A DNA stretch of 64,000 nt from assembly GCF_041886205.1 (NCBI RefSeq), contig NZ_CP169029.1. One strand, written 5' to 3'. This document shows positions 2,970 through 55,368 of the stretch, in pieces. A model generated the notes under the pieces. The model did not search any database. It saw nothing but the letters and a program-made list of their open reading frames with translations, and was not told where the DNA came from. Origin of the DNA: Escherichia coli (GTDB lineage Bacteria > Pseudomonadota > Gammaproteobacteria > Enterobacterales > Enterobacteriaceae). A program made the translations under genes and the position numbers. Within the stretch, counting starts at the first letter, position 1. The number at the start of each line of letters is the position of its first letter.

Positions 2970-2972
2970 ATT

Positions 2973-9736: not shown

Positions 9737-10603
<867 letters not shown>

Positions 10604-17388: not shown

Positions 17389-17433
17389 ATTCCTGCTATC
17401 CTTCGCGGCAGTTTTTCTTATTGAGGTTGCTTT

Positions 17434-34905: not shown

Positions 34906-35282
34906 TCCTGTTCTTTAACTCTTAACGTAAAAACCGCTTCGGCGGCAATGCCGATCAGTTAAGGAGCGGTTGACTGATCCTTAAACTGCGGCACTATAAC
35001 GGCTTCCACTCCAGGGAGCCGTTTTCTTATGCCACTTCTCAATGATCTGTTCGCCGCATGAGCCTCAGCGCTGATGGCGAGGTCGGAGAAAAGGTCCTGT
35101 CGCGCAATGCCATTACTCAGGCCCGGCGACGGGTGGCACCGCGCCTCTGGAATGGCTCTTTCATCAGACGGCACAGATCCGGGGAGCAGAACATTACCCC
35201 AAAGATAGCTGGCGTGTATTACAGCCCTTTGTCGTGCACGGGGGACACCGGATAGCAGGAAGTCTGGGGTATATTGCTGGCC

Positions 35283-35370
35283 TACAATCTGATACGACGG
35301 AAAGCTACAAAGGCAGTAGAAAAGCATAAAAGAGTGCTGAAAGAAATCAGCTTCAAATTTGCCGTATCAG
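35283..35370. repeat. Direct repeat copy A flanking the PTS/porin module
   Basis: CTGATACGACGGAAAGCTACAAAGGCAGTAGAAAAGCATAAAAGAGTGCTGAAAGAAATCAGCTTCAAATTTGCCGTATCAG; similar copy at 41469-41554. Confidence 0.6.
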
Positions 35371-35566
35371 AAAGTAGATGAAATCAGACATTATCTAATA
35401 TTATATTTTGGTTAAAATAGATATCAGAATTTAGCTATCCAATCGGTTTAATAAAATGAACCCGATTAAGATTGCTATGTGCTGAATGTATTTCATTTAA
35501 ATATAAATTAAAAAGTCGCCAGCAAGCTTATTTAACAGAACCGATAAAATAAAAAATGATATAAAT

Positions 35567-36613
35567 TTAGAACCAAAATTCAAGACCGGCGCGGTAAAAA
35601 TAGTCATTACTTTCTGAATTATAGGCGTCAGTTCGACCAATACGGACATAAGGGAGAAAACCATTTTCCATATTCATCATTAACTGTAAAGACGTCACTT
35701 TATCGGCGGTGTCTTTCTGGGTGACATTGTCTATTTTATAATCATTATTTTTGGCATACCCTAGCTTAGCACCATAGATACCATGCCAGTATTCGCCAAT
35801 TAAACTATAGGCATCCTGGGTGCTTTTAACATGGGTAATAAGGTCGGTCGTTTGACCATTTTTATAGCCCGCGTAAAACCTCAGACCAAGATCTGTAATG
35901 GGTATCTCGAGGCCCAAAACATAACCAGAGGCATCCTCCAGATTGTCATTTAACGTGTCATCGGTCGGTTGAACTGATTTGTTGCGAGTTTCTTCATAAG
36001 CAACATGTACTTTCACTGTAGAGAACGGCGTCCAGGTTACCCGTGAGCTGTAAGTCGTCGATCCAGAAACCGTAGAATCATCGCGATTAACGCTGAGAAC
36101 CACATCAAATCCCCCATAGTCTTTTGTTGCAAGGCTACCGTCATAGCGCACCATATTCGACATGCGATTGCTTTGATGCCAATGAACGTCACCTCCCCAG
36201 TCAAAAACGCGACCGAGACCGGGGTTGGTATAAGGCCAGTCAATGATTTCGTATAACGCCCCCTTCATGCGGCCAAAGCGAAGTTTCCCATACTTACCTT
36301 CAAACCCCACAAAGGTATCAAACTTTCCCAGACCAGAGTCGTTGGCCTCATAACCAACATAACCACTTTCAATCTGGAATATAACATTTACACCTTCAGT
36401 TATTTCTTTGTTCCCGCGAAAACCAATATATGATTCGTTATCGAGAGTATAATCATAATTCCTTTCATTGGCCTGAGTGGTAAAAATGGACATGGCTAAT
36501 TTACCATAGATTTCCAGGTTAAAATCTTTTGGCCCTCCCACTTGCATTGCATTTACTATTGTAGGCATAGTCGTAAGCAAAGAAATGCAAATAATATTAC
36601 TTGTTTTATCCAT
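35567..36613 (-). CDS. Outer-membrane porin (OmpC/OmpF-type general porin family), PTS-associated
   Basis: 348 aa; signal peptide; N-terminal ...LEIYGKL... and C-terminal ...GLEFWF beta-barrel signature ending in Phe. Confidence 0.7.
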   Translation of the reverse strand: MDKTSNIICISLLTTMPTIVNAMQVGGPKDFNLEIYGKLAMSIFTTQANERNYDYTLDNESYIGFRGNKEITEGVNVIFQIESGYVGYEANDSGLGKFDTFVGFEGKYGKLRFGRMKGALYEIIDWPYTNPGLGRVFDWGGDVHWHQSNRMSNMVRYDGSLATKDYGGFDVVLSVNRDDSTVSGSTTYSSRVTWTPFSTVKVHVAYEETRNKSVQPTDDTLNDNLEDASGYVLGLEIPITDLGLRFYAGYKNGQTTDLITHVKSTQDAYSLIGEYWHGIYGAKLGYAKNNDYKIDNVTQKDTADKVTSLQLMMNMENGFLPYVRIGRTDAYNSESNDYFYRAGLEFWF

Positions 36614-36833
36614 AAGTTGCCCCAGTAATTTTATATCCGAAAAGAGTAAAACCCGCCTTCATGGAGGGCTGTATTCATTACGCCATGAAAGGGCGTATTA
36701 AAATCTTTAAAAAGAAGTCTTCTGCCAGTCCTGTGAGATTTAAATCCAAAGGCAATAAGACAGAGCCAAAACCAGTGGATGACCACGCCCATAGAACGTG
36801 GTTTTCAGTTGGCAATAAATATTGAAAATAGAA

Positions 36834-37691
36834 TTATTTAGTTCTATTGATAATGTCCAGTGAAGATATTATTTTCTCCACATTATCTCCCCGATTAATA
36901 AATAATAACGCATTGAATAAAACATCAACCATAAAACTTTGTGCAGCGGTAATCGTTGATGAATCTGACTGATAAGGATTTGACGTCCCACCCGTCAGTA
37001 AGACAACATCAGCGTACTGACTTAATGAGGAATGCTTTAGTTTACTAATAACAATAGTCATCGCCCCTTTCTCTTTCACTCTTCTTAACGCATCGACAAC
37101 ATCGCGCGTTTCACCAGAGTGTGAAATCGCAACCACCACATCCTTTTTCCCAACGTTGTTCGAATTTAAGGTCATGGTATGATTGTCGATCAGAGCATCG
37201 ACGTTTGCCATAATTCTCATGAATCGATATTTGGCATACAGGACGGATATGGCTGACATACCAATGCCGTAGAAATAAACCTGCCCCGCTTTGCTCAGAC
37301 CGTCAGCTGCACGCATTAGGGTCTGTTCCTCTTGCAGGGCAAGCGTTTCATTGATAACAACGTAATTATCATTAGCCAGCTGTTGTGCAATCCCTGTCAT
37401 GGAGTTCGTCTGCTCATCAAGAGAAATCACTTTTGATAACAATGTATCGTCTGTATCTGTTTCCAGGCGAAGAGTCGTCTTTAATTCTGAAAAGCCCTTG
37501 TATCCCAGCTTTTTACAAAACCGAATAATAGACGCCTCACCAACATTCATTGCATCCGCTAATTTTGCAATGCTCATATTGATGAATTGCATACGATTAT
37601 TTTTAATAAACTGGTAAATACGTATTTCAGTCTGGGTCAATTCATTAATTCTGGTGTTAATTAACGTGTTAAAGACGACTCGGGTTTTCAT
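36834..37691 (-). CDS. RpiR/MurR-family transcriptional regulator (HTH + SIS domain)
   Basis: 285 aa, N-terminal HTH (IAKLADAMNVGEASIIRFCKKLGYKGFSELK) and SIS sugar-phosphate binding domain. Confidence 0.8.
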   Translation of the reverse strand: MKTRVVFNTLINTRINELTQTEIRIYQFIKNNRMQFINMSIAKLADAMNVGEASIIRFCKKLGYKGFSELKTTLRLETDTDDTLLSKVISLDEQTNSMTGIAQQLANDNYVVINETLALQEEQTLMRAADGLSKAGQVYFYGIGMSAISVLYAKYRFMRIMANVDALIDNHTMTLNSNNVGKKDVVVAISHSGETRDVVDALRRVKEKGAMTIVISKLKHSSLSQYADVVLLTGGTSNPYQSDSSTITAAQSFMVDVLFNALLFINRGDNVEKIISSLDIINRTK

Positions 37692-37698
37692 TAAGTAC

Positions 37699-38004
37699 TC
37701 ACTCCATCTTTTTATAAACCTCTATCAATTCTGTCACAAGTTCACGGCAAAGCATACCTGTCATAAGGTGATCTTGGGCGTGAACCATCACCAGAGTGAT
37801 TTGCAGTTTACCTACCCCCTCATCCAGACCAATTAGCCGAGTCTGCACCTCGTGTGCCTGCCTGAAGGCATCGTCAGAAACCTTTAAAGAGGCTTCCGCT
37901 TCAGCAAAGCTCCCCGCTTTGGCGAACCTGAGCGCCTCCATGGCACAACTGCGACCTTCGCCAGCGGCGATAATCAGCGACATCACATCATTTTCATAGC
38001 TCAT
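37699..38004 (-). CDS. PTS lactose/cellobiose-family EIIA component
   Basis: 101-aa helical EIIA (ChbA/LacF-like). Confidence 0.8.
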   Translation of the reverse strand: MSYENDVMSLIIAAGEGRSCAMEALRFAKAGSFAEAEASLKVSDDAFRQAHEVQTRLIGLDEGVGKLQITLVMVHAQDHLMTGMLCRELVTELIEVYKKME

Positions 38005-38040
38005 TTAAATTATCTCGTGTTAGGTATCGGTGGATACGAT

Positions 38041-38352
38041 TCATTTTGATGAAATCAGATCAACGGCCTGTTGATACACTTTTTCACCATTCATAGCCCC
38101 ATACAGTAACGGGCTGATGGCCTCTGATTTCTTGCCATTCATTTCTGCCAGCTTTTGTATTTCCGTCAGCTTAAATCGAATCTGAGGCGCAACCAGTACG
38201 ACGTCATAATTCGCGATGACATCTTTCAGAACATCAACGCCGTGAGCTTCAATAACTGATTCATGGCCGACGGAATTGGCGTAATCTTTCATTCGCTTCA
38301 TTAACATTGAGGTAGACATTCCCGCAGCGCACACTAAAAGTATCTTATTCAT
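38041..38352 (-). CDS. PTS lactose/cellobiose-family EIIB component
   Basis: 103 aa, N-terminal MNKILLVCAAGMSTSMLM with active-site Cys. Confidence 0.85.
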   Translation of the reverse strand: MNKILLVCAAGMSTSMLMKRMKDYANSVGHESVIEAHGVDVLKDVIANYDVVLVAPQIRFKLTEIQKLAEMNGKKSEAISPLLYGAMNGEKVYQQAVDLISSK

Positions 38353-38376
38353 AGCAATTACCCGTCATTGATAAAA

Positions 38377-39921
38377 TTATGTCACAGTAATATGTAAACC
38401 ACTCATCCGCCGGAAAGGGGCGGAAATGGAAGTGATCGTAGGACTGCGGCCGTTAAAGCTATAGTGAATATTTTCCATCCAGGTCTTTTCGATTTCAGAC
38501 TTAATTTTATCGAACACCATCGTTTCCTTTTCTTCAAATGAGGAATAGCTCTGGCCAATTGAAGGTAAATATTCAAACTGAACAGGGAAGCGGACTTCGG
38601 TCTGGTAAGCCCAGTCCGATACCAGCCTTTCTTTTAAGAAACGTTCGATAGCGTCAGCATTATCGCCCATGGTCGAAAAGACAAGGTTCGCTATCCCCGT
38701 ACCTAACGAATTACACGTTGTGTTCCAGCCTGCGTAGCCCTTAATGGTATCGAGTGCGCCGGCTTTATCCAGCGCCCGAATAAGTTCAGTTTCACCGCCG
38801 TTTGACATCGCCACATCGATGACTACCACTGACACCTGCAAAGCTCTGCTGGCAATTTCTTTTGCATAGGTCACCAGGTCACGATGGGTGTAGTAAGTGA
38901 TATTTTTATACTTTGGCTTCCGCACACCGGTATGCAGGTTATAGCCATAGCTAATATCAAAAGCCTCCTGCATTATCTCACCGCACCCATTGATCGCTAA
39001 AACAGGCAGCGAGGCATCATTATCGACCAACGTTATACCCGACGCGGCTGCATACGAACGCAGTGAGTGTATAAAAGGACGATCTTCATAATTCGGGATA
39101 TAGGTTTTAAACAGTTCGTTTGAATAGAGTGTGGTGGCTATAAAATCCTTTTTCCTCATCGACAAATAGGCTTTGGTCAACAATGTGCATCCAGACTCAT
39201 CGGTGCCAGGATGAACAAACACCCGGTCCTGTACCCCAAGCAGGGATATCTTTTCGTAAATGCGTTCCTGATCCTGCATCGTAAAACCAAATTCCGCGGT
39301 ATCGTCCAGCGGGATTATCAGCTGATCGATAATCTTTTCATCAACGAGTTCTATCGCATTCTCAATGAGCTGCAGATTTTTACTTCTGCGCGACAGCCAG
39401 TCGTCAAAGGAAGCAGAATTAATAGCGGAACGATGTGCAAGCAGATGCGCTTTTTCGTCTTCGCTCAGCCCGACACGCTTCTCTTTGTCAGACAGATAAC
39501 CAACCTGAAAAATTGAATGCCCGATATGTGCATAGTAATCCGGTTCTTCTTCACTGGAATTATATTTTGGCGTACGTAGCACCAGTGAAGATGCATAAAT
39601 CTTAAGTGCCGGATAACTTTCTTTCAGTGTTTTAATTTTATTTAACCTTGCTATAAGCTCAGTTAATTCCATCTGATGAATACGCGCGGGAAAAAGTCCA
39701 CCGTAGAGATACATATCCAGGCTGATAATTAACGCATCGGAATCGGCACAGTGGCTGTTTATAAAGTCATCTACAGCCTGATGTGAAGCTGGTTGTTTTT
39801 TGTATCCTAAAATCTCTTTCGCTGGCATTTTTAACGAAATATTGCTGTCCATCGAGGCCAGAGAAATCAGGAAGTCATAGTTATAAGGTCGGATATCCAG
39901 AGGTATGCTAATTATATTCAT
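38377..39921 (-). CDS. Uncharacterised 514-aa protein inside the PTS operon (possibly DUF4127-like; family assignment tentative)
   Basis: Long ORF between IIC and IIB with 15-25 nt gaps; no signal peptide or TM segments evident; no glycoside hydrolase family 1 or 4 motifs recognised. Confidence 0.6.
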   Translation of the reverse strand: MNIISIPLDIRPYNYDFLISLASMDSNISLKMPAKEILGYKKQPASHQAVDDFINSHCADSDALIISLDMYLYGGLFPARIHQMELTELIARLNKIKTLKESYPALKIYASSLVLRTPKYNSSEEEPDYYAHIGHSIFQVGYLSDKEKRVGLSEDEKAHLLAHRSAINSASFDDWLSRRSKNLQLIENAIELVDEKIIDQLIIPLDDTAEFGFTMQDQERIYEKISLLGVQDRVFVHPGTDESGCTLLTKAYLSMRKKDFIATTLYSNELFKTYIPNYEDRPFIHSLRSYAAASGITLVDNDASLPVLAINGCGEIMQEAFDISYGYNLHTGVRKPKYKNITYYTHRDLVTYAKEIASRALQVSVVVIDVAMSNGGETELIRALDKAGALDTIKGYAGWNTTCNSLGTGIANLVFSTMGDNADAIERFLKERLVSDWAYQTEVRFPVQFEYLPSIGQSYSSFEEKETMVFDKIKSEIEKTWMENIHYSFNGRSPTITSISAPFRRMSGLHITVT

Positions 39922-39936
39922 GTGCTCTTTCTCTGA

Positions 39937-41259
39937 TTATTTCTGTTTATTCATGGCGAAAACAAATGGCAGATAAATGATAACCGACAAGCTGATTAAA
40001 AATACGGATAGCACCGCAGCTCTCCAGTCTCCTCCCGTAGCCAGGAAGGCGCTAATCACTGGTGGCGTTGTCCATGGCACAAGAACATATGTATGGTTAA
40101 TCAAATCCATTGCCGTCGCGGCATAAGCAATCACGATGCTGATAATCGGAGTGAATAAAAATGGTACAATTAGCACCGGGTTGAACATAATTGGCAAACC
40201 AAAAATGATGGGTTCATTTATGTTGAACAACATCCCAGGAGTTGCCAGACGAGTAATCGCACGATGCTCTGATTTTTTCGCTGCAATCCATAAAGCAATC
40301 AGTAAGCCGATTGTCTGGCCTCCGCCGCCCATAAATCCAAAGGCATCGATGAACGGTTTTGTGACGATATGTGGGATTTCAAGGCCAGCCTTAAACGCGG
40401 CAGTATTTTCCTGAATCGCCACCAGCAGGGTTGTCTCAGTAATAGGGTACATGATACTGGCACCATGGATCCCTGCCCACCATAATCCGTTTTGCGTCAA
40501 AAGTAGTCCTATTACTCCGCTCAGACCCTGTAAAATATTTTGCAGCGGAGCCTGAATCATCAGAGTAACGATTTCATGTATGTTTTTGTTGAAGAGACTG
40601 CTTAACGACCATGCAAAGAGACTCAGCAAGGTTAACACCAGGATCATCGGTATTAATACGTTAAAGCTCCTTGATACGGAGGGGGGAACTGAATCAGATA
40701 AAGTAATTTTCAATTTAGATGAGGCCGAAACTTTGCGAAAAAGTTCAGTGGAAATAAGCGCCACAAATATGCCTACAAACATACCAGACGCGCCACTTTC
40801 ATTGCCGCTGATTAGCCCCGAAACCTGAAAAACCTCGCCCGTCGGCGCTGTAACGGGAATGGTGACCGGGAACAAAACAAATAAACATGCCAGTGAGAAG
40901 ATGGCATACGTTATCCCATCCTCGCCATAGCTGTTGGCTAATCGATATGAAATCATCACCGTTGCCAGAAAGGCGAGAATATTCAGCGTTCCGTTATAGA
41001 CGCGGATGCCAATTTCCTGTAGGTGGCGAACCCATGCGCCTTCCAGCCCCAGAAAACCGACTAAACCGGATTCGCCGTTGAGCAATACATTATTTATTAA
41101 TATAAATAGAGACGCAGCAATAATTAAAGGCATGAGCGCGACAAATGATTCCCTCACTGCCGAAAGATGTCGCTGTCCTGAAAAATCGCCCGCCCAATTA
41201 GAGATCTTGTCAATGAAAACAAGACCACTCCCACTTTTAATTTTATTGATGAAATTCAT
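39937..41259 (-). CDS. PTS lactose/cellobiose-family EIIC permease
   Basis: 440-aa polytopic membrane protein, ChbC/CelB-like. Confidence 0.85.
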   Translation of the reverse strand: MNFINKIKSGSGLVFIDKISNWAGDFSGQRHLSAVRESFVALMPLIIAASLFILINNVLLNGESGLVGFLGLEGAWVRHLQEIGIRVYNGTLNILAFLATVMISYRLANSYGEDGITYAIFSLACLFVLFPVTIPVTAPTGEVFQVSGLISGNESGASGMFVGIFVALISTELFRKVSASSKLKITLSDSVPPSVSRSFNVLIPMILVLTLLSLFAWSLSSLFNKNIHEIVTLMIQAPLQNILQGLSGVIGLLLTQNGLWWAGIHGASIMYPITETTLLVAIQENTAAFKAGLEIPHIVTKPFIDAFGFMGGGGQTIGLLIALWIAAKKSEHRAITRLATPGMLFNINEPIIFGLPIMFNPVLIVPFLFTPIISIVIAYAATAMDLINHTYVLVPWTTPPVISAFLATGGDWRAAVLSVFLISLSVIIYLPFVFAMNKQK

Positions 41260-41468
41260 ATAAGAAAATCTCGCGCCCTAGATATTAGTTTCAGCGTATT
41301 TTATTTATCCCCTTTCGTAATACTGTTAGCTTTGTCACAAAACTCCAAAAATTCCAACTAAAATGATACTAAATGGAGTTTTTTTGGTTTTGTAATCTAC
41401 CGTTCTGGAGTCTGGTATTAACAATAAAAGCGGCTTTCGCAGGAGGATAAATCATCAGCATTTGTCCA

Positions 41469-41554
41469 GACAAGCTGATACGACGGGAAGCTATAAAGGT
41501 ACAGAAAAGCATAAAAGAGCGCCGTTAGAAATCAGCTTTAAATTTGCCTTTCAG
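41469..41554. repeat. Direct repeat copy B flanking the PTS/porin module
   Basis: CTGATACGACGGGAAGCTATAAAGGTACAGAAAAGCATAAAAGAGCGCCGTTAGAAATCAGCTTTAAATTTGCCTTTCAG; roughly 80-85% identical to copy A by eye. Confidence 0.6.
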
Positions 41555-41759
41555 TTTATACAACAGAAATGATAGTGCCGGGAAACACGTCGTCGCCGGG
41601 AATGCTCCCAAGAGACTGGAGTATCGGAGGGGAAACCTGGAAGCGCTGTTCATAACAAAACGCCCCGACCGTCAAGGCCGCGGGTGGTGAAGATATCAAA
41701 ACGTCCATGCTGTTCCGCTTAAGTGAACGGCATTGCGCTGCAGTGGGTTTTTTATGCCT

Positions 41760-42584
41760 TCAAAGTAGTAGCGGTAGGGTCGCACTCGCCGTTTGCTGGC
41801 TCACATCGTTGTACTTTTCATCCAGTCCAAACAGCGACGTGGTGAGCAGTTCCACCAACAGCATGACACCAACCTTGGCGTTTAGCGCGCCAGCACTCAA
41901 CGGACCTTCTGGTTTGGCTGCGACCAGTTGAATATCACTCAGCGAAGCCAGCGGACTATGCGGTGTATTACTCAGCGCCAGTATGCGTACACCTTGCTTA
42001 CGCGCCAGTTTAACCACATGCAGCAGATCGCGTGTGGAGCCTGAACTGGATATTGCCACTACCAGCGTGTCTTTGCTTAGCGTTGTAGCGTTCATAGCAG
42101 CACGGTGCATGTCGCTGAACAATTGCGCGGGTTTGCCGAGGCGCAGGAGTTTGTAATGTAAATACTCTCCCAGAATAGCGCTGGCCGCTACGCCATAAAT
42201 TTGTACCGACTGAGCCTGATGCAGCGCCAGAGCGGCTGCTTCCAGTAATGTTCTGTCGAGTAATTTTGCCGTGTCCTGCAGCGCTTGCACGGATTCATTG
42301 ACGACATTGTCAATCTCATCACCGCTGCGCTCTACCAGCTCTCCTTGCCGGAGATCGAGTGCCAGCGCCATCTTAAATTCGTTATAGCCCTTACACCCCA
42401 GCGTACGGCACAGACGTGTGACGCTCGCCTCGCTGGTGTCGCTTTCACGCGCCAGTTCGGTAATCGTCAGGTAGACCACTCTTGCCGGATCGCTAAGCAC
42501 AAACTCTCCCAGCTTCTGTTGAGTTCGACTATATCCATCAACGCTCTGGCGCAATCTCAGCAGTAGGTTTTCATTTTCTGACAT
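41760..42584 (-). CDS. RpiR/MurR-family transcriptional regulator (second copy)
   Basis: 274 aa, HTH + SIS domain; divergent from the EIICB gene. Confidence 0.8.
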   Translation of the reverse strand: MSENENLLLRLRQSVDGYSRTQQKLGEFVLSDPARVVYLTITELARESDTSEASVTRLCRTLGCKGYNEFKMALALDLRQGELVERSGDEIDNVVNESVQALQDTAKLLDRTLLEAAALALHQAQSVQIYGVAASAILGEYLHYKLLRLGKPAQLFSDMHRAAMNATTLSKDTLVVAISSSGSTRDLLHVVKLARKQGVRILALSNTPHSPLASLSDIQLVAAKPEGPLSAGALNAKVGVMLLVELLTTSLFGLDEKYNDVSQQTASATLPLLL

Positions 42585-42749
42585 GCAAAATCCTTAATGC
42601 GTTTCTCTGCCGATAGTGTGGCGGAAAGTAGGGGAGAGATGCTAGTCATTTTAAAAAAGTATGATCGGTGCCCTGGTTTTTGATGGTAATTTTCATTTTT
42701 ATAATTAGTTGTGGTAAAAATTTTCATCAAAGAGCGGGGAGATGAAAAA

Positions 42750-44306
42750 ATGATGCAAATATTTAGCGGCGCTTCGTCAGGCGCATGGTTTGAAAAAGCG
42801 CAGCGGTTCGGCAAATCGTTCATGCTGCCGATTGCGGTATTGCCCGCAGCGGGGTTGTTGTTGGGGATTGGTGGGGCTCTGTCGAATCCCAATACGCTGA
42901 CGGCCTACCCATTCTTGAATGTCGACTGGCTGCAGGCAATTTTCACGATCATGACCAGCGCAGGTTCTATCGTGTTTGCCAACCTGTCGGTGCTTTTTGC
43001 GGTTGGTGTTGCCGTGGGACTGGCGAAAACGGATAAAGGCACGGCGGGCCTTGCGGCATTGCTGGCTTTTCTGGTGATGAATGCCACCATCAATGCTTTG
43101 TTAACGCTCAACGGAACGTTGGCGCACGAAAATCCAGGTGCTGTGGGCCAAGGGATGACGCTGGGCATTCAGACGCTGGAAACGGGCGTTTTTGGCGGGG
43201 TCGTGATTGGTCTGGTCACCTGCGCACTGCATAACCGTTTCAATAAAGTCTCACTCCCTCAGTTTCTTGGCTTTTTCAGTGGTTCGCGTTTTGTACCGAT
43301 TATCAGTTCGCTTGCCGCGATTGTAGTGGGGGTGATCATGACGGTGGTATGGCCGCATTTCCAGAAGCTCATTTTTGGACTGGGCGGTCTGGTGGATGCG
43401 ACGGGCTATCTGGGGACGCTACTGTATGGTTTCATTCTGCGTATGCTTGGCCCACTGGGTTTACACCATATCTTTTATTTGCCGTTCTGGACAACAGCGC
43501 TGGGAGGGAGCGAAATCGTCAACGGTCAACTGGTCGAAGGCACCCAGCGTATTTTCTTTGCCCAACTTGCCGATCCGAATACGCAGCAGTTTTATGCCGG
43601 TACCTCGCGCTTTATGTCCGGGCGCTTTATCACCATGATGTTTGGCCTGCTTGGCGCATGCCTCGCGATGTACCACACGGCAAAACCGGAGAAGAGAAAG
43701 CTTGTCGCCGGACTGCTGTTGTCGGCGGCCCTGACTTCTTTCCTGACGGGCATCACTGAGCCTATTGAGTTCTCCTTCCTGTTTGTGGCTCCGGTGTTAT
43801 ATGTCATTCACGCCTTCTTCGATGGTCTGGCGTTTATGATGGCGCATATTTTACATATCACTATTGGGCAAACCTTTTCGGGTGGACTGATCGATTTCCT
43901 CCTCTTCGGCGTGCTACAGGGGGAAGCGAAAACCAACTGGATGTACGTCCCCTTGGTTGGGGTTCCGTGGTTCTTTCTTTACTACTTCACCTTCCGTTAT
44001 TTGATTAACCGTTTTAACTGGCTGACGCCCGGGCGCGAGAACACAGCCCAGGTGGAGTCCGGTCTGCCTCAGAGCGAACGCGCAGCGGCAGTCATCGCCG
44101 GACTGGGAGGCAAAGAGAATCTGGAAGAGGTGGACTGTTGCGCCACACGCTTACGCGTGACGGTGAAAGAGAGCAGCAAGGTAGATGAAGCTGCGCTGAA
44201 AGCGACCGGAGCGCGTGGCGTAATTATTCGCGGCAACGGTGTTCAGGTGATTTATGGCCCGCATGTCACCATAATTAAAAATGAAGTCGAAGAGATCTTA
44301 TCATGA
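42750..44306 (+). CDS. PTS glucose/N-acetylglucosamine-family EIICB component
   Basis: 518 aa; N-terminal polytopic EIIC, C-terminal EIIB with CATRLR phospho-Cys motif; ATG 42750 with GGGGAG RBS (ORF track starts at GTG 42711). Confidence 0.8.
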
Positions 44307-44995
44307 TGAAAACTGTACTGGATTCCCTGAAAGGTAAACTAATTGTCTCCTGCCAGGCGCTGGAAAATGAACCCCTGCACAGCCCGTTTATTATGTCGCG
44401 TATGGCGCTGGCGGCAGCGCAGGGCGGTGCGGCAGGTATCCGTGCTAACAGCGTGGTAGATATTCGCTCGATCAAAGAGAGCGTCTCCCTGCCGGTAATA
44501 GGGATTATCAAGCGTGATTATCCGGGCTGCGAGGTGTTTATTACGGCCACTTTGCAGGAAGTGGATGAGCTGATGACCGTTGAGCCGGAAATTATTGCTC
44601 TGGATGCGACAGCGCGCCCGCGCCCCGGTGGGCAAATGCTGGAAGAGCTGGTTATGCAAATCCGTGTCCGCTATCCGTCCGTACTGCTGATGGCGGATAT
44701 CGCCACCGTCGATGAGGCGGTAACAGCCGAGCGGCTGGGTTTTGACTGCGTGGGCACCACGCTCTATGGCTATACCGCGGACACTGCCGGGCATGTAATG
44801 GTGGATAACGACTGCGGTTTTTTACGTGAGGTGTTGGCGGCGGTCACAATACCGGTCGTGGCGGAAGGTAATATCGATACCCCGGAACGCGCCGCACGTT
44901 GCCTGGCATTAGGCGCGCATACCGTGGTGGTTGGAGGCGCTATCACGCGTCCGCAGCAGATAACGGCACGATTTGTCGCGGCGATCGCCTCGTAA
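44303..44995 (+). CDS. Putative N-acylmannosamine-6-phosphate 2-epimerase (NanE family)
   Basis: 230 aa, [14 protein letters not shown]... and ...GTTLYGYT... resemble NanE; start overlaps the EIICB stop. Confidence 0.65.
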
Positions 44996-45066
44996 AGCAT
45001 CGATGGGGCATGATACTTTGGCGGGGATCTGCGATAATTAACGTTTATCCCCATATTGAGAGCGCT

Positions 45067-45738
45067 ATGCAGTACCCGATTAACGAGATGTTCCAGACCC
45101 TGCAAGGTGAGGGTTACTTTACCGGCGTCCCCGCCATTTTTATTCGTTTACAGGGATGCCCGGTTGGCTGTGCCTGGTGCGACACCAAACACACCTGGGA
45201 AAAGCTTGAGGATCGGGAAGTCTCCCTTTTCAGCATTCTGGCGAAGACCAAAGAGAGTGATAAGTGGGGGGCGGCGAGCAGTGAAGACTTGCTGGCTGTC
45301 ATTGGTCGCCAGGGATACACCGCGCGGCATGTGGTGATTACGGGGGGGGAGCCTTGCATTCATGATTTGCTGCCACTGACTGACCTACTCGAAAAGAACG
45401 GTTTTAGCTGCCAGATCGAAACCAGTGGTACTCATGAAGTACGCTGCACACCGAATACCTGGGTTACCGTATCGCCAAAGCTGAACATGCGCGGCGGCTA
45501 TGAAGTGTTGTCACAGGCACTGGAGCGAGCCAACGAAATCAAGCATCCTGTGGGGCGCGTACGCGATATTGAAGCACTGGATGAACTACTGGCAACGCTG
45601 ACCGATGATAAACCGCGAGTCATTGCACTGCAGCCGATTAGCCAAAAGGATGATGCCACACGATTGTGCATTGAAACCTGTATTGCGCGTAATTGGCGTT
45701 TGTCGATGCAAACACATAAATATTTAAATATTGCCTAA
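45067..45738 (+). CDS. queE: 7-carboxy-7-deazaguanine synthase
   Basis: 223 aa from MQYPINEMFQTLQGEGYFTGVPAIFIRLQGCPVGCAWCDTKH (radical-SAM CxxxCxxC variant); ORF track start 44899 is an upstream extension. Confidence 0.9.
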   Translation: MQYPINEMFQTLQGEGYFTGVPAIFIRLQGCPVGCAWCDTKHTWEKLEDREVSLFSILAKTKESDKWGAASSEDLLAVIGRQGYTARHVVITGGEPCIHDLLPLTDLLEKNGFSCQIETSGTHEVRCTPNTWVTVSPKLNMRGGYEVLSQALERANEIKHPVGRVRDIEALDELLATLTDDKPRVIALQPISQKDDATRLCIETCIARNWRLSMQTHKYLNIA

Positions 45739-46077
45739 TTACACATTTATAAGCGTTATAAATGGGTGGAACTTGTAAAGAATTCCACTCATTTGTATTA
45801 TTTGTCGCCCCTGAAAACTCATCCATCTTGCCCATCCCGGACTAATCATTATCATTCTCTACAAATTCTGCGGCGTTAATTTTTCGCTGGAGTGAAAATT
45901 ATTGCGGCGAAGTTTGGTAGATTTTAGTTTGTATAGAGTTATTTTAAATATTTACCTTTTTAATCAAAAGATTAAGTGCTCTTTAACATAATGGATGTGT
46001 TGTTTGTGTGATACTGTAAAGTTGGTAGATTGTGACTGGCTTAAAAAATCATTAATTAATAATAGGTTATGTTTAGA
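45739..46077 (+). promoter_or_regulatory. AT-rich CRISPR leader region
   Basis: About 340 bp of AT-rich non-coding DNA directly upstream of the first repeat. Confidence 0.6.
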
Positions 46078-46350
46078 GAGTTCCCCGCGCCAGCGGGGAT
46101 AAACCGTTCGCTGGCAATCCACTCAGGAATTTCGGGAAGAGTTCCCCGCGCCAGCGGGGATAAACCGGGCAGTACCGACATGGACGGTCACCACGAGTTG
46201 AGTTCCCCGCGCCAGCGGGGATAAACCGTGTATAGCGCCAAAATTGACGAAAGACATGTTGAGTTCCCCGCGCCAGCGGGGATAAACCGGTTGTAGCTGA
46301 CAATGTAAATCATGGATTTACGAGTTCCCCGTGCCAGCGGGGATAACCAT
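46078..46350 (+). CRISPR. Type I-E CRISPR array: 5 repeats (last degenerate), 4 spacers of 32 nt
   Basis: 29-bp repeat GAGTTCCCCGCGCCAGCGGGGATAAACCG at 46078, 46139, 46200, 46261; degenerate GAGTTCCCCGTGCCAGCGGGGATAACCAT at 46322. Confidence 0.95.
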
Positions 46351-46360
46351 TCAGGTATGT

Positions 46361-46930
46361 TCAGGCCGGGCAGTTTCCCGCCCGGCCTTCCTCACTTACG
46401 CATTCGACCAGCTCTGGATCGAATCCGCATTCCCCATGCATCACTTCATACGATTTTTTCAGTATTACATCATTATGTTTGGTTAGGTCTTTGAAAATGC
46501 CTTTATTCATCGCGTCGTAGCGTTTGGCATTGCTCTCAATCGGTATAAAGATATCTTTCACGCGAACCATTTTGTCGACAGCCGTTGCGTAATCCGGGTA
46601 TAGTCCCAGACCTACCGCCGTATTAATCGCTGCCCCCAGACTTGCACAACCGTTAATGGCGTTACGTCGTGCCGGAAGGTTGAACATGTCGGCAAAAATC
46701 TGCATAAACAGATCGCTGTTCGAACCGCCGCCAGTAATGATCACATGCTTTGCAAAGTGATTCATTTCATTACGCATATTGTCGTAATTGTTCTTCAGCG
46801 TCAGAGCCACGCTTTCCAGTATCGAACGATATATCCATGCGTAACGCGCAAGCGCTGCCTGCAATACCGGCACCAATAATAATAATGTCGCAGTCATCTT
46901 CCGTGTCATACCCCAAATATCCAGACTCAA
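46361..46930 (-). pseudogene. ygcE: 3' remnant of an FGGY sugar kinase gene (ygcE-like), 5' part deleted
   Basis: C-terminal FGGY motifs (ARYAWIYRSILESVALTL..., IITGGGSNSDLFMQIFADMFNLPARR) in a 189-codon ORF; a full FGGY kinase is about 490 aa; N-terminal 30 residues look out of frame. Confidence 0.65.
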
Positions 46931-51981: not shown

Positions 51982-52245
51982 ATATTGCCGGATAAATTAA
52001 ACGCCTCTGTCAGAAATGATGGGGGCGTTTTTATTTTGCGAGCAGCATTCCTGATTTTAAACGTGAAAATAGCAGAGGGAATCAGCAGGCATAGAATGGC
52101 GTCGGGTGCTTGAGGCTGTCTGGCGTTGAGCATTCGCGAGGTTCCAGATGGACAAAAGCCCCAGGCGATATTTCTATCAACCTGAGGCCAGCGTTCGAAC
52201 CTAAGCAATTCGGATGTTAGTCTCTTCTTTGCAGGGAGGCAAGAC

Positions 52246-52398
52246 ATGCTGACAAAATATGCCCTTGTGGCAATCATCGTACTGTGTTGTACAGTACTGG
52301 GATTCACGCTGATGGTAGGCGACTCGTTGTGTGAGTTGAGTATCAGAGAACGTGGTATGGAGTTTAAGGCAGTTCTCGCTTACGAATCGAAGAAGTAG
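52246..52398 (+). CDS. Hok/Gef-family type I toxin (hokX-like locus)
   Basis: 50-aa [53 protein letters not shown]: N-terminal TM helix plus conserved C-terminal LCE..IR....E.A..AYES pattern of Hok proteins. Confidence 0.7.
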
Positions 52399-52635
52399 CC
52401 ACCACGCGGGGGGTAAAATCCCGCGTACTGAATTGTGATGGTTTGGTCTCCTGCACCCTTTTTAATTTATATTGTTTATGTGAATATTATGCCTGTGTTT
52501 ATTATTTATATGTTTTATAGATGAAAACCATTGAATTATTCACAATGTAAATATTTTAATGAACGATATATATCACAGATAATTTTTAATATATGCGTAA
52601 ATATCCTTTAAGTTTTACGAAAGGATAAAAACATT

Positions 52636-54063
52636 GTGACTTTCTTTGATTTCTGGGGAAAAAACCGACGCGGCGAGAAAGAGGGCGGCGACGACTATCA
52701 TCTACTTTGCTGGCATTCGCTGGATGTAGCCGCGATGGGCTATTTAATGGTTAAAAGCAATTGCTTCGGGCTGGCTGACTATTTTCGTCAACTAGGTTTC
52801 GATGATACGGAGCAGGCAGCACAATTTTTCGCCTGGCTATTGTGCTGGCACGATATTGGAAAATTTGCCCGCTCTTTTCAGCAACTTTATCTGCATCCAC
52901 AACTCAAGGTTCCGGAAGGCGCAAGAAAAAATAACGAAAAGATCTCTCATTCAACGCTGGGTTACTGGTTGTGGAATCATTATTTAATTGAATGTGACGA
53001 GTTGCTTCCTTCCTCTTCACTCTCTCCCCGCAAACTTAAACGGGTAATAGCGATGTGGATGCCCATGAGCACGGGGCATCATGGTCGCCCACCTGACCGT
53101 ATTGATGAACTGGATAATTTTCTGCCTGAAGACAAAGTTGCCGCGCGAGATTTTCTCCTTGAAATCAAGTCACTGTTCCCGCTCATAGAGATCCCCACAT
53201 TCTGGGATGATGACGAGGACGTTGAACTTATAAAACAACTTTCCTGGTATATCTCTGCAACCGTCGTACTTGCAGACTGGACAGGATCGTCAACGAGATT
53301 TTTTCCACGCGTCGCACACCCAATGGATATTAAAGATTACTGGCAGAAGGCTTTAGTGCAGGCTCAAAACGCCTTAACCGTCTTTCCTCCAAAAGCAGAA
53401 ACCGCACCTTTCACCGGAATTAATACACTGTTTCCTTTTATTGAGAATCCGACACCGTTACAGCAAAAGGTGCTGGAACTGGATATCAGCCGGCCCGGGC
53501 CACAGTTATTTATTCTGGAGGATGTAACCGGCGCAGGTAAAACAGAAGCGGCGCTTATCCTGGCGCACAGGTTGATAGCTGCGGGGAAAGCTCAGGGGCT
53601 GTTTTTTGGTCTGCCAACAATGGCAACGGCCAATGCCATGTACGATCGGCTGGTCAAAACCTGGCTTGCTTTCTATTCGCCAGAATCCCGCCCCAGCCTG
53701 GTGCTGGCACACAGTGCCCGCACATTAATGGACCGCTTTAATGACTCACTCTGGTCCGGTGATTTAGTCGGGTCAGAAGAACCGGATGAACAAACGTTCA
53801 GTCAGGGATGTGCAGCCTGGTTTGCCGACAGTAACAAGAAGGCTTTACTGGCTGAAATTGGCGTCGGCACGCTGGATCAGGCGATGATGGCAGTGATGCC
53901 GTTTAAACATAATAATCTGCGGCTTCTGGGGTTGAGTAACAAAATCCTGCTGGCTGATGAGATCCACGCCTGTGACGCTTACATGTCGTGCATTCTTGAA
54001 GGGCTGATCGAGCGGCAGGCGCGTGGCGGAAACAGCGTTATTTTGCTTTCTGCTACGTTATCT
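52636..54063 (+). pseudogene. cas3: 5' fragment of type I-E cas3 (HD nuclease domain and helicase motifs I-III), truncated at a CRISPR repeat
   Basis: HD motif (CWHDIGKF), Walker A (TGAGKTEA), DExH (LLADEIHACD), SAT (LLSATLS); reading frame then runs directly into the repeat at 54064; about 476 codons, roughly half of a full cas3. Confidence 0.8.
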
Positions 54064-54214
54064 GTGTTCCCCGCGCCAGCGGGGATAAACCGCCATTCTT
54101 GTTGTCGTTCATCAAGCGCAGGGGGTGTTCCCCGCGCCAGCGGGGATAAACCGGGTAAATAACACAGCGTTTGAAACAGGCAAAAGTGTTCCCCGCGCCA
54201 GCGGGGATAAACCG
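54064..54214 (+). CRISPR. Type I-E CRISPR array remnant: 3 repeats, 2 spacers, no leader
   Basis: GTGTTCCCCGCGCCAGCGGGGATAAACCG at 54064, 54125, 54186 with 32-nt spacers; directly abuts the cas3 fragment. Confidence 0.92.
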
Positions 54215-54330
54215 GCGCAATACGGTGCGGTTTTCCCGGAAGTAAACCGGGCGCACTGGATGCGATGATGGGTATGACTTAGAATTCCCCGCCCCTGCGG
54301 TAGAACTCCCAGCTCCCATTTTCAAACTCC

Positions 54331-55368
54331 TCAAGACGCCTTCGCCAGCTCCTTCACCAGCGGTAGCATTATCCGCATAACATCACGGCAGCGACGTTCT
54401 ATTCTTCCAGGAAGTGCCTTATCAATATGTTGTTGATTATCCAGTCTTACGTCATGCCAGCTATTTCCCGCCGGGAAGGCAGGTGTTTTTGCGCGTTGCT
54501 GATAACCATCCTTATTCCCAAGATTCCAGTTAGTCGCTTCCACCGAAAGTACAGCAATGCCCGCTTTGTCGAATATTTCTGCGTCATTACAACACCCAGT
54601 GCCTTTCGGATAATTTTTATTCAAACCCGGATTGGTCGTTGCGGCTATTCCGTGACTGCGCGCAATTGCCAGCGCCCTGTCGCGCGTTAATTTCCTTACT
54701 GCTTCAGGGGTTTTTACACCGCTGTTGAAATACAATTTATCGCCAACAATTAAGTTATCGAGATCAATCACCAGCAGCGTATTTTTCTTTTCGGTGTCAC
54801 TCATCCGCTTGAGTAAATTCTCAGCGCCTAATTTCCCTTCCTCTTCGCCGCTGGTCGCCACAAATCGAATACCATACTCGGTAGGCGTATTTTTCAGGCG
54901 TTCTGCCAGTTCCAGCATGACACCTAAACCTGCGGCGTTATCATCCATTCCTTGTAACGTCAGCCCGCCGAGATTGGCATCGGCGTCAGCATCGCTCAGC
55001 GGGGCGTAAGTATCCAGATGCGCCATAATGATGATCTGCTGCGGCGCTTTGCCTTCATGAGCGGCAATCACCGTACTTCCTGTCACGTTATGCCAGTTCT
55101 TGCGATTATCGCGGGCGGTATAAATATACCGACTATTAAATGTCCGAATATCACTGCGATAACCCATTTGCTGAAACTGTTGGCGAATATAATCGGCAGA
55201 TAACATTTCTGCAGGAGTTCCGGTCATGCGTCCCGGAAAGAAAGTAGCAATATGTCGTGCCTGAGTATTAGCAAAATCGCCAGGTTTAGGTAACGAGGCG
55301 TGTACGGGGAGAATAAAGCATACGCCGAGCGCCAGGGCAGCGGTACGGTGGCGCAATGCGGAAAACAT
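54331..55368 (-). CDS. iap: Alkaline phosphatase isozyme conversion aminopeptidase
   Basis: 345 aa with signal peptide, M28 peptidase-like. Confidence 0.9.
   Translation of the reverse strand: MFSALRHRTAALALGVCFILPVHASLPKPGDFANTQARHIATFFPGRMTGTPAEMLSADYIRQQFQQMGYRSDIRTFNSRYIYTARDNRKNWHNVTGSTVIAAHEGKAPQQIIIMAHLDTYAPLSDADADANLGGLTLQGMDDNAAGLGVMLELAERLKNTPTEYGIRFVATSGEEEGKLGAENLLKRMSDTEKKNTLLVIDLDNLIVGDKLYFNSGVKTPEAVRKLTRDRALAIARSHGIAATTNPGLNKNYPKGTGCCNDAEIFDKAGIAVLSVEATNWNLGNKDGYQQRAKTPAFPAGNSWHDVRLDNQQHIDKALPGRIERRCRDVMRIMLPLVKELAKAS

What the first reader, a model, noticed from the sequence alone, without database searches (positions are those of the whole stretch)
45739..46350. Type I-E CRISPR array with leader but no cas genes in the window
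An AT-rich leader and four full repeats plus a degenerate terminal repeat lie between queE and the ygcE remnant. The repeat is the canonical E. coli I-E 29-mer. No Cas1, Cas2, Cas6e or Cascade genes occur anywhere in this 64 kb, which includes the usual iap-cysH cas site. The array is therefore likely orphaned unless cas genes sit elsewhere.
Basis: partly seen in the sequence, partly recalled or inferred. Interest (0 to 1): 0.5.

Follow-up and report, generated by a model that had tools for sequence, protein, structure and literature searches.

The report
Orphaned E. coli CRISPR arrays
The window holds two leftover E. coli type I-E CRISPR arrays whose cas operon was deleted, which is a known situation, but the deletion joins half of cas3 exactly to the first base of a repeat, as do six other independent deletions, hinting that the CRISPR machinery helps delete its own genes.

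Summary
Four perfect 29-nt I-E repeats plus a degenerate fifth lie at 46078-46350, behind a 339-nt AT-rich leader that is 94% identical to the K-12 one.

- a cas3 pseudogene (52593-54063, codons 1-490 of 899, cas-E1 variant);
- a second, leaderless array remnant fused directly to it (54064-54310).

No Cas1, Cas2 or Cascade genes are in the window. The two genomes that match the window, and nine others with the same junction, showed no I-E cas1, cas6e or cas7e anywhere. One of the two also has no I-F genes at clpA-infA. The arrays are therefore orphaned.

Relatives that share the junction differ only by internal spacer losses and one duplication, never by new leader-end spacers. No spacer matches phages, plasmids or cas genes. 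Orphan E. coli arrays are well known (BL21; Almendros 2014), so the finding itself is ordinary.

One result is unexpected. Seven independent cas3-to-array deletions, five in E. coli and two probably in Salmonella, all end exactly at base 1 of a repeat, which is where Cas1-Cas2 makes its first strand transfer. An IS421-associated deletion in BL21 ends inside a spacer instead. This points to involvement of the adaptation machinery in cas loss, but that is inferred, not shown.

The parts
45067..45738 (+). queE (ygcF), upstream flank of the CRISPR-II locus
   Evidence: RefSeq annotation of the identical strain wlxctx60 transferred to window coordinates (window = locus + 40399)
45739..46077 (+). 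Leader of the queE-side array (CRISPR2.3-type leader), intact
   Evidence: 319/339 identical to the K-12 leader and 99/100 in the last 100 nt; 32% G+C. The one difference in the last 100 nt (G at -62, window 46016) is a common allele also found in cas+ strains
46078..46350 (+). Array A (CRISPR2.2-3 type): 4 perfect repeats, 4 spacers of 32 nt, degenerate terminal repeat at 46322-46350
   Evidence: The terminal repeat matches the CRISPR2.2 terminal repeat of K-12 and BL21, and the 0.5-kb spacer region between CRISPR2.3 and 2.2 is absent
46396..46843 (-). 3' remnant of ygcE (FGGY kinase pseudogene)
46839..46844 (.). Junction of a 10.2-kb ygcN-to-ygcE deletion, at a 6-bp microhomology GCGTAA
   Evidence: alignment to K-12. 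The deletion is shared with many strains that still have cas genes
52104..52398 (+). hok/sok toxin-antitoxin locus between cysH and cas3, typical of non-K-12 (cas-E1) arrangements
   Evidence: Rfam sok match, 108 bits; Hok/Gef CDS at 52246-52398; PMC3903273
52593..54063 (+). cas3 pseudogene, cas-E1 variant: nt 1-1470 of 2700 (HD domain and first RecA domain up to helicase motif III, ...SATLS), with an extra T at 52613-52616 that shifts the frame at codon 8
   Evidence: The variant was assigned from the E1-specific primer site described in PMC3903273
54063..54064 (+). Deletion junction: last cas3 base (nt 1470) abuts base 1 of a complete repeat. The rest of cas3, casABCDE, cas1, cas2, the L1 leader and any upstream spacers are missing
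   Evidence: The identical junction occurs in 11 of 5426 complete E. coli genomes and in protein cluster P0110, which has 609 members
54064..54214 (+). Array B (CRISPR2.1 remnant, no leader): 3 repeats of GTGTTCCCCGCGCCAGCGGGGATAAACCG and 2 spacers
54215..54310 (+). Tail of array B: partial spacer (54215-54228), internally deleted repeat (54229-54249), conserved trailer spacer (54250-54281), degenerate terminal repeat (54282-54310)
   Evidence: identical in all lineage strains, and the trailer is shared with K-12, MB53 and others
54331..55368 (-). iap, downstream flank of the CRISPR-I locus

Best explanation
These are two orphaned, slowly decaying type I-E CRISPR arrays in an E. coli chromosome. 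A single ancestral deletion removed the 3' 46% of cas3, casABCDE, cas1, cas2, the cas-side leader and the leader-proximal part of the iap-side array. It left cas3 nt 1470 abutting a repeat. The queE-side array (46078-46350) lies 8 kb away and was untouched, so it keeps a complete leader. By analogy with K-12, it can presumably still be transcribed from the leader promoter, subject to H-NS silencing. Without Cas6e the transcript cannot be cut into crRNAs. Without Cascade and Cas3 it cannot guide interference, and without Cas1-Cas2 it cannot gain spacers. Both arrays are therefore inert memory, and they change only by Cas-independent recombination between repeats. Array A would be expected to accept spacers again if Cas1-Cas2 were supplied, as happens in BL21-AI. 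Array B, which has no leader, would not. Shown here: the anatomy, the absence of cas genes, and the pattern of spacer change. Inferred: transcription, lack of processing, and re-usability.
For: Anatomy of both arrays and the cas3 remnant. No other Cas protein in the window. No cas1, cas6e or cas7e of either E. coli variant elsewhere in the 11 junction-bearing genomes, with cas+ controls giving a second place. No I-F genes at clpA-infA in wlxctx60. Leader conserved, including the last 60 bp that Yosef et al. 2012 (PMC3384332) found sufficient for acquisition. In BL21-AI, which lacks casABCDE, the leader-bearing array acquires spacers when Cas1+2 are supplied, and the array without a conserved leader does not (PMC3384332). 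Five relatives with the same junction whose arrays were read all keep the same leader-proximal spacer S1. They differ only by internal losses (S2-S3 pairs, S4, Sb-Sc) and one duplication (Sd-Sd). VE-T9 carries a hybrid repeat that marks a repeat-repeat crossover. No spacer matches 50,697 phage or 72,556 plasmid records beyond chance, nor cas genes or the rest of the window. Loss of cas-E1 genes together with leader L1 and part of the array, with the CRISPR2.3 leader conserved in cas-less strains, is already documented (PMC3903273).
Against: The genome-wide test used megablast, so a cas operon less than about 85% identical to both E. coli variants would be missed. Only the canonical I-F site was inspected, and in one genome only. 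Transcription and lack of processing were not measured. The hypothetical six-spacer ancestor (S1-S2w-S3w-S2x-S3x-S4), needed to explain the two array A variants by loss alone, was not found in 5426 genomes. Replacement by recombination with foreign arrays therefore remains possible. Long retention of perfect repeats could also reflect some unknown use.
Confidence: 0.9

Rival explanations
1. The arrays are still part of a working system because cas genes elsewhere in the genome, or on a plasmid, serve them in trans.
For: Distant arrays served in trans are normal in E. coli: the queE-side array is about 20 kb from the cas operon in K-12.
Against: The chimeric search found no cas1, cas6e or cas7e of either variant elsewhere in any of the 11 genomes, and no plasmid hit in 20,395 records. 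The I-F site is empty in wlxctx60. I-F Cas6f is specific for a different repeat (established knowledge, not tested here).
Confidence: 0.03
2. The orphan arrays are kept because they do something without Cas proteins, or as an anti-cas trap. Possibilities are a regulatory RNA, or a block on re-acquisition of a cas-E operon, as shown for the orphan I-F CRISPR4 arrays of E. coli.
For: Orphan I-F arrays of E. coli carry spacers against I-F cas genes and block uptake of the system (Almendros 2016, as summarised in PMC5972030 and PMC8616872). The repeats of array A are perfect and its leader is intact.
Against: None of the 11 lineage spacers or the 2 tail fragments tested matches cas-E1 or cas-E2 operons or the rest of the window; the longest match seen in the part of the output that was shown was 13 nt (output truncated). 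Spacers are being lost at random between close relatives. The perfect repeats are equally explained by a recent origin: the whole lineage is at least 98.9% identical across the 1.9-kb cas3-to-iap region.
Confidence: 0.05
3. The cas3-repeat fusion is an assembly artefact caused by repeats.
For: CRISPR repeats often break or mis-join short-read assemblies. Two of the supporting contigs from other species end inside the array.
Against: The same junction is present in 11 independently finished complete genomes, one of which has a later IS1 insertion inside the cas3 remnant. It is also present in a protein cluster with 609 member sequences. cas3 shares no long word with the repeat that could cause a false join.
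Confidence: 0.01

Closest known systems
Orphan I-E arrays of E. coli B (BL21, BL21-AI), the standard host for spacer-acquisition assays
   Same: There are no casABCDE, cas1 or cas2 genes. The queE-side array has the same leader and repeat family. The iap-side remnant has no leader. In the published work, only the leader-bearing array acquires spacers when Cas1+2 are supplied (PMC3384332; loci).
   Different: In BL21 the whole of cas3 is gone and an IS421 sits at the deletion, which ends 19 nt inside a spacer. Here there is no IS, half of cas3 survives, and the junction is at base 1 of a repeat. BL21 keeps ygcN-yqcE and separate CRISPR2.3 (13 spacers) and CRISPR2.2 arrays. The window has a fused four-spacer array and a ygcN-ygcE deletion.
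CRISPR-I locus arrangements lacking cas-E genes described by Almendros et al. 2014 (mBio, PMC3903273)
   Same: The cas-E1 genes are lost together with leader L1, and the CRISPR2.1 array is partly depleted. hok/sok is retained next to cysH. The CRISPR2.3 leader is conserved in cas-less strains.
   Different: The published main routes go through recombination between IS186 or ISu copies. The allele here has no IS and retains a cas3 5' half. I could not see their figure 5, so I cannot say whether this exact minor arrangement is drawn there.
E. coli K-12 MG1655 CRISPR-II (ygcE-queE) array
   Same: Same chromosomal site, orientation, 29-nt repeat and 61-nt period, with a 94% identical leader.
   Different: K-12 has an intact cas-E2 operon, six different spacers, GTG-type repeats, and a separate CRISPR2.2 mini-array 0.5 kb downstream.
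Orphan I-F CRISPR4 arrays of E. coli with anti-cas spacers (Almendros et al. 2016)
   Same: Small arrays left behind after loss of the cognate cas genes.
   Different: Those spacers match I-F cas genes and act against re-entry of the system. The spacers here match nothing, cas genes included.
Half-site integration product of the Cas1-Cas2-IHF integrase at the leader-repeat junction
   Same: In all seven deletion alleles the 3' end of upstream + strand DNA is joined to the 5' G of the repeat. From my own recall of Nunez 2015, that is the position and the polarity of the first strand transfer. The papers read here give the position only (PMC10011333; PMC8616872; PMC3737337).
   Different: The joined DNA is not a 33-bp prespacer. 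It is the chromosome itself, 5-8 kb upstream, so the result is a deletion. Nothing shows that Cas1-Cas2 catalysed it.

Membership tests
Type I-E CRISPR array of E. coli (CRISPR-II locus, CRISPR2.2-3 form) | 29-nt repeat GAGTTCCCCGCGCCAGCGGGGATAAACCG with a 61-nt period and 32-33-nt unique spacers | tested here: met
   Four exact copies plus one degenerate copy, all spacers 32 nt, and 0 matches expected by chance
Type I-E CRISPR array of E. coli (CRISPR-II locus, CRISPR2.2-3 form) | Located between queE (ygcF) and ygcE, with an AT-rich leader on the queE side homologous to the K-12 leader | tested here: met
   Synteny; leader 319/339 identical to K-12
Type I-E CRISPR array of E. coli (CRISPR-II locus, CRISPR2.2-3 form) | Single array ending in the CRISPR2.2 terminal repeat (...GGGGATAACCAT), without the 0.5-kb spacer region | tested here: met
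   Compared with K-12, BL21, GF4 and others; nomenclature from PMC3903273
Complete, functional type I-E CRISPR-Cas system | cas1 and cas2 (adaptation module) | tested here: not met
   No tblastn hit in the window; no cas1 match elsewhere in matching genomes
Complete, functional type I-E CRISPR-Cas system | Cascade genes, including cas6e for pre-crRNA processing | tested here: not met
Complete, functional type I-E CRISPR-Cas system | Intact cas3 (HD nuclease plus both RecA domains and the C-terminal domain) | tested here: not met
   Only codons 1-490 of 899 remain, and they are frameshifted at codon 8
Orphan CRISPR array | No cognate cas genes anywhere in the same genome | tested here: met
   Chimeric megablast search with positive controls; empty clpA-infA site. 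Limit: homologues less than about 85% identical at the DNA level are not excluded
Orphan CRISPR array | Pre-crRNA not processed and no interference | not testable with these tools
   Needs RNA-seq or northern blots and plasmid-loss assays in strain 6EVA or wlxctx60
Anti-cas orphan array (as E. coli CRISPR4, I-F) | Spacers match cas genes of the cognate system | tested here: not met
   In the portion of the output shown, the longest match of any lineage spacer to cas-E1 or cas-E2 operons was 13 nt
Cas1-Cas2 strand-transfer product (for the deletion junction) | A 3' end joined to base 1 of the repeat on the leader-side strand | tested here: met
   7 of 7 independent cas3-array deletion alleles
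Cas1-Cas2 strand-transfer product (for the deletion junction) | Dependence on Cas1 catalytic activity and IHF | not testable with these tools
   Needs genetics (cas1 D221A, ihf mutants) or an in vitro reaction

The most novel reading that the evidence does not exclude
Loss of the I-E cas operon in Enterobacteriaceae is often produced by the CRISPR adaptation machinery itself. In seven independent deletions, cas3 + strand sequence is joined exactly to base 1 of a complete repeat. The E. coli alleles break at cas3 nt 1470, 1555, 1671, 2046 and 2459, and two further alleles probably come from Salmonella. Base 1 of the repeat is the site of the first Cas1-Cas2 strand transfer. There are two candidate routes. 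In the first, a chromosomal 3' end undergoes aberrant strand transfer or rejoining after an integration-associated break at the repeat boundary, followed by RecBCD resection. In the E. coli alleles the left ends lie 72-1061 nt beyond the correctly oriented Chi at cas3 nt 2531. In the second, a spacer is acquired from cas3 and then recombines with its own protospacer. The window's orphan arrays would be one product of this self-inflicted deletion.
Probability: 0.45. Interest if true: 0.7.

Novelty: new member of a known kind. Interest (0 to 1): 0.4.

Why it matters
The orphan array itself is routine. E. coli lineages that lost cas-E genes but kept arrays have been described since 2010, and one of them, BL21, is a laboratory workhorse. 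It is still useful to record that this lineage carries a leader-bearing array ready for trans-complementation next to a leaderless remnant, and that it documents array decay after cas loss.

The wider point concerns how CRISPR-Cas systems are lost, which happens often and is usually ascribed to IS elements, random deletion or escape from autoimmunity. If the nucleotide-exact cas3-repeat junctions seen here in seven independent alleles reflect integrase chemistry or spacer-protospacer recombination, then cas loss has a built-in, sequence-readable mechanism. That mechanism can be surveyed in any genome collection and tested with simple genetics.

Tried and rejected
1. **Protospacers.** The six window spacers were searched against phages and plasmids. 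The only hits had E of 0.2 or more and straddled artificial spacer boundaries, so they are chance.
2. **Spacers against E. coli genomes.** Eight lineage spacers were searched against 5426 genomes. Every row shown fell in a CRISPR array, one of them unannotated, and no prophage protospacer appeared. No genome held more than four of the eight together, so the hoped-for six-spacer ancestor was not found.
3. **Apparent spacer matches to the cas3 tail.** The junction search returned 83-88% matches in arrays of BL21, NCTC9082 and others. On inspection these are T-rich chance similarity (17/22, or gapped), not a cas3-derived spacer.
4. **Canonical PAM upstream of the junction.** The self-spacer model predicts AAG or ATG 32-33 nt upstream of each junction. 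I found GAA, CCA, ATA, GAG, GCG, CTT and GGT, which is 0 of 7. This weakens that model but does not exclude it.
5. **An intermediate strain.** I looked for a strain with an intact operon and a spacer equal to the cas3 tail. None exists among 5426 genomes.
6. **Whether the junction repeat was the first repeat.** In leader-bearing relatives of 16F5M1D1, such as E. coli W, the same spacers sit 5-6 units from the leader. The test is therefore uninformative.
7. **Consensus promoter scan of the leader.** It gave no more sites than shuffles. Rfam at gathering threshold reports nothing for the arrays.
8. **Truncated Cas3 proteins P0121 and P0123.** They looked like possible out-of-phase array junctions but are IS903-like and IS1 insertions.
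9. **Look-up by the Hok protein.** I used it to sample arrangements, and it returned mostly intact operons.
10. **Leader G at -62, inside the reported -10 box.** I suspected decay, but it is a common allele in cas+ strains.

Full report
**1. Observation**

- Exact copies of GAGTTCCCCGCGCCAGCGGGGATAAACCG start at 46078, 46139, 46200 and 46261.
- A fifth, degenerate copy (GAGTTCCCCGTGCCAGCGGGGATAACCAT) lies at 46322-46350.
- The period is 61 nt and the four spacers are 32 nt each. Dinucleotide shuffles give no match.
- Upstream, the 339 nt between the queE stop codon and the first repeat (45739-46077) are 32% G+C. They match the K-12 queE-side leader at 319 of 339 positions, and at 99 of the last 100.
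- Downstream lies the last 448 nt of ygcE (46396-46843, minus strand).

**2. Where the window comes from**

The window is E. coli chromosome. The regions queried are 99.9-100% identical to strains 6EVA (NZ_CP138428) and wlxctx60 (NZ_AP045833), and 99.99% identical to wlxctx60 over 23.6 kb. The window runs opposite to K-12 numbering. The gene order is relA, mazG, pyrG, eno, an accessory sugar/PTS block, queE, array A, ygcE', queD, cysJIH, hok/sok, cas3', array B, iap, then cysDNC.

A 10.2-kb deletion from ygcN to ygcE joins at the 6-bp microhomology GCGTAA (46839-46844). This deletion is older than the cas loss, because many strains that still have cas genes share it.

Array A ends in the terminal repeat that closes the CRISPR2.2 mini-array in K-12 and BL21, and it lacks the 0.5-kb spacer region. 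It is therefore the fused 'CRISPR2.2-3' form in the nomenclature of Almendros et al. (PMC3903273).

**3.

The repeat search also hits 54064, 54125 and 54186, in the GTG variant of the repeat. These three repeats and two spacers are followed by four elements:
- a partial spacer;
- an internally deleted repeat;
- the conserved trailer spacer;
- the degenerate terminal repeat next to iap, ending at 54310.

Immediately upstream, 52593-54063 is the first 1470 nt of a 2700-nt cas3. It is 94% identical in protein to intact cas3 of the non-K-12 'cas-E1' variant and only 32% identical to K-12 Cas3. The E1-specific primer site of PMC3903273 is recognisable.

The remnant stops after helicase motif III (...ILLSATLS). 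It therefore lacks the second RecA domain and the C-terminal domain. It also has an extra T at 52613-52616 that shifts the frame at codon 8. A protein cluster of 609 members has the same junction but an intact N-terminus, so the frameshift came later.

cas3 nt 1470 abuts base 1 of a complete repeat. The missing material is the rest of cas3, casA-E, cas1, cas2, the cas-side leader and any leader-proximal spacers.

**4. Are there cas genes anywhere else?**

In the window, tblastn with all eight K-12 proteins and seven E1 proteins finds only the Cas3 fragment.

For the whole genome I used a chimeric query. It joined 1.8 kb of strain-specific sequence (ygcE'-queD-cysJ) to 420-nt pieces of cas1, cas6e and cas7e from both variants. 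All 11 complete genomes with the junction ranked first and showed a single place, the tag. The next relatives (MB53, PT62 and others) showed two places, and MB53 was confirmed to carry an intact cas-E1 operon. No plasmid among 20,395 records matched.

The canonical I-F site between clpA and infA in wlxctx60 is about 750 bp and holds only tRNA-Ser.

The arrays are therefore orphaned. One caveat remains: megablast would miss an operon less than about 85% identical to both variants.

**5. What the arrays can still do (inferred)**

The closest experimental model is BL21-AI, which lacks casABCDE. Its leader-bearing queE-side array gains spacers when K-12 Cas1+2 are supplied. Sixty bp of leader suffice, and its other array, which has no conserved leader, does not expand (PMC3384332).

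The window's last 100 leader bases match those of K-12 and BL21 except for G at -62. That base lies in the reported -10 box, but it is a common allele that goes with GAG-type first repeats and is also present in cas+ strains.

By analogy:
- Array A is probably transcribed, under H-NS control, but is not processed.
- Array A would be adaptation-competent if Cas1-Cas2 were supplied in trans.
- Array B is inert.

None of this was measured.

**6. Is the array frozen?**

Five other genomes that share the junction were compared.

| Array | Window, wlxctx60 | Other junction-bearing strains |
|---|---|---|
| Array A | S1-S2w-S3w-S4 | XJ5.2, AH04 and LHM10-1: S1-S2x-S3x-S4. VE-T9: S1-S2x-S3x, with a hybrid last repeat that marks a repeat-repeat crossover |
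| Array B | Sa-Sb | XJ5.2: Sa-Sb-Sc-Sd. AH04: Sa-Sb-Sc-Se. LHM10-1: Sa-Sb-Sc-Sd-Sd. VE-T9: Sa-Sd. The 609-member protein cluster: starts with Sc |

The leader-proximal spacer S1 never changes, and nothing new appears at the leader end. The differences are internal losses and one duplication, as expected from Cas-independent recombination between repeats.

The cas+ relatives MB53 and PT62 have only S4 in array A. S1-S3 were therefore added before the cas loss, or MB53 and PT62 lost them.

One point remains open. No genome carries both internal pairs together, so replacement by recombination with another array cannot be excluded.

No spacer matches phages, plasmids, cas genes or the rest of the window.

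**7. How the cas genes were lost: the unexpected part**

While looking for an intact reference operon I met other deletion alleles. Wherever a deletion runs from cas3 into the array, the junction is at base 1 of a full repeat.

| Allele | Last cas3 position kept | Evidence |
|---|---|---|
| Window lineage | nt 1470 | |
| N17 group | nt 1555 | locus L024 |
| P0095 / L040 (650-member cluster) | codon 557 (nt 1671) | |
| O8:H8 16F5M1D1 | nt 2046, with a 1-nt ambiguity | locus L025 |
| 2020CK-00188 | nt 2459 | locus L028 |
| P0124 / L041 (486 members) | not mapped | sopD neighbour and about 72% identical Cas3, so probably Salmonella |
| P0107 / L042 (51 members) | not mapped | same reasoning, probably Salmonella |

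Different cas3 breakpoints make the seven events independent.

With a 61-nt unit, the chance of hitting phase 0 is about 1/61 per event. That gives about 3e-13 for seven events, or about 7e-10 if one base either way is allowed.

Controls:
- In BL21(DE3) the deletion is flanked by IS421 and ends 19 nt inside a spacer.
- Other alleles end in cas2, cas1, cas6e, cas7 or casA and keep the leader.
- Two truncated proteins with odd tails are IS insertions.

**8. Candidate mechanisms (all inferred)**

Base 1 of the repeat on this strand is where Cas1-Cas2, positioned by IHF, makes its first strand transfer. That reaction joins a 3'-OH to the 5' end of the repeat (PMC10011333; PMC8616872; PMC3737337). 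The strand assignment and polarity come from my own recall of Nunez 2015, not from a paper read here. All seven junctions have that polarity.

*Route 1.* An integration-linked nick or break occurs at the repeat boundary. The region upstream of the array is a known acquisition hotspot bounded by Chi (PMC10011333). RecBCD then resects leftward, and the retained 3' end is rejoined or strand-transferred to the repeat. In support, the E1 operon has three Chi sites, all in the orientation that RecBCD recognises when moving from the array toward cas3: cas5e nt 593, casA nt 1026 and cas3 nt 2531. The left ends cluster as follows:
- All seven distinct E. coli left breakpoints (five cas3-repeat alleles plus the cas3-cas1 and cas3-cas2 fusions at nt 1585 and 2037) lie 72-1061 nt beyond the cas3 Chi.
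- Five of them came from a DNA search that could detect breakpoints at about nt 100-3100.
- This clustering was noticed after the fact, so it is only suggestive.

*Route 2.* A spacer taken from cas3 in the same orientation recombines with its own protospacer, which would give the same junction. Cas-targeting spacers have been proposed as a cause of I-F cas loss (PMC8616872). Two observations count against it. The PAM slot is GAA, CCA, ATA, GAG, GCG, CTT or GGT, so none of the seven has the AWG motif of the E1 variant (PMC3737337). No intermediate strain exists among 5426 genomes. Selection against self-spacers with a working PAM could explain the first of these.

Two full-text searches found no description of this junction rule, but the library is incomplete.

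**9. Verdict**

- The finding as written is correct and ordinary: a new allele of a well-known kind of orphan E. coli array.
- The corrections are a cas3 remnant and a second array at the iap-cysH site.
- The added value is the evidence for decay without acquisition, and the in-phase junction rule.
- The junction rule is solid as an observation on seven alleles, but it comes from a small, opportunistic sample and has no experimental support for any mechanism.

Noticed in passing
window 54063-54064; loci L024 2547|2548, L025 3038|3039, L028 4154|4155, L040 4671|4672, L041 4055|4056, L042 4298|4299: Seven independent deletions join cas3 coding-strand sequence exactly to base 1 of a complete I-E repeat. 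An IS421-flanked deletion in BL21 ends inside a spacer instead. None of the seven has an AAG or ATG PAM 32 nt upstream.
   Followed up: partly
locus L014 (MB53) 12534, 13826, 16566; window 50195 and 50213: The cas-E1 operon has three Chi sites (cas3 nt 2531, casA nt 1026, cas5e nt 593), all oriented for RecBCD moving from the array toward cas3, and none in the other orientation. All E. coli left breakpoints seen (1470-2459) lie just beyond the cas3 Chi. The next Chi sites are in cysI.
   Followed up: partly
window 46839-46844: A 10.2-kb deletion from the start of ygcN into ygcE removes ygcN-O-P-Q-R-S-U-W and yqcE. It is joined at the 6-bp microhomology GCGTAA. It is shared by many strains that still have cas genes, so it predates the cas loss.
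   Followed up: yes
window 46229-46260 (S3w) and 54093-54124 (Sa); loci L009, L010, L017, L018: Two of the window's spacers also occur in the other CRISPR locus of unrelated strains. S3w, with one mismatch, is near the trailer of the iap-side array of ST648-type strains. Sa is identical in the middle of the queE-side arrays of Ecol_545 and CE2050. This could be independent acquisition of the same protospacer or exchange between arrays.
   Followed up: partly
proteins P0003, P0004, P0047, P0092, P0108, P0027, P0059, P0101, P0103-P0105, P0071, P0028, P0029: Public E. coli assemblies hold many different in-frame internal deletions of cas3-E1, and fusions of cas3 to cas1, cas7, cas6e or casA. Some sit at short shared peptides such as WLT or LSA. 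The E1 operon appears to be eroding in many lineages.
   Followed up: no
loci L025, L026 and L027; cas3 nt 2037 and 2046: Two unrelated deletions, cas3-cas2 fusions in NT1F10 and 23CRST035 and a cas3-repeat fusion in 16F5M1D1, have left breakpoints only 9 nt apart in cas3.
   Followed up: no
window 52104-52398: A hok/sok-type toxin-antitoxin locus lies between cysH and the cas3 remnant (Rfam sok match of 108 bits; 50-aa Hok/Gef CDS at 52246-52398). The exact Hok protein is indexed in more than 91,000 blocks of the public collection.
   Followed up: partly
window about 34959-45000: A block of PTS transporters, MurR/RpiR regulators, a DUF4127 protein, an N-acetylmannosamine-6-phosphate epimerase and an IS4 remnant (about 41475-41722) lies between eno and queE. 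K-12 and BL21 have ygcG and yqcG at that position.
   Followed up: no
window 17032-17391: A full-length CsrB small RNA gene (Rfam 383 bits).
   Followed up: no
locus L004 (XJ5.2) 2329-3026 and 9962-10659: One relative with the same junction has later IS1 insertions in both the ygcE remnant and the cas3 remnant, which shows continuing decay of the pseudogenes.
   Followed up: yes
window 63395-63459: An imperfect 24-nt tandem repeat (2.7 copies, 70% matches) inside the gene annotated as nlpD.
   Followed up: no
locus L035 6154-6277: One public genome has hok followed by iap after only about 124 nt, so the cas genes and apparently the whole array are gone. The junction was not examined.
   Followed up: no
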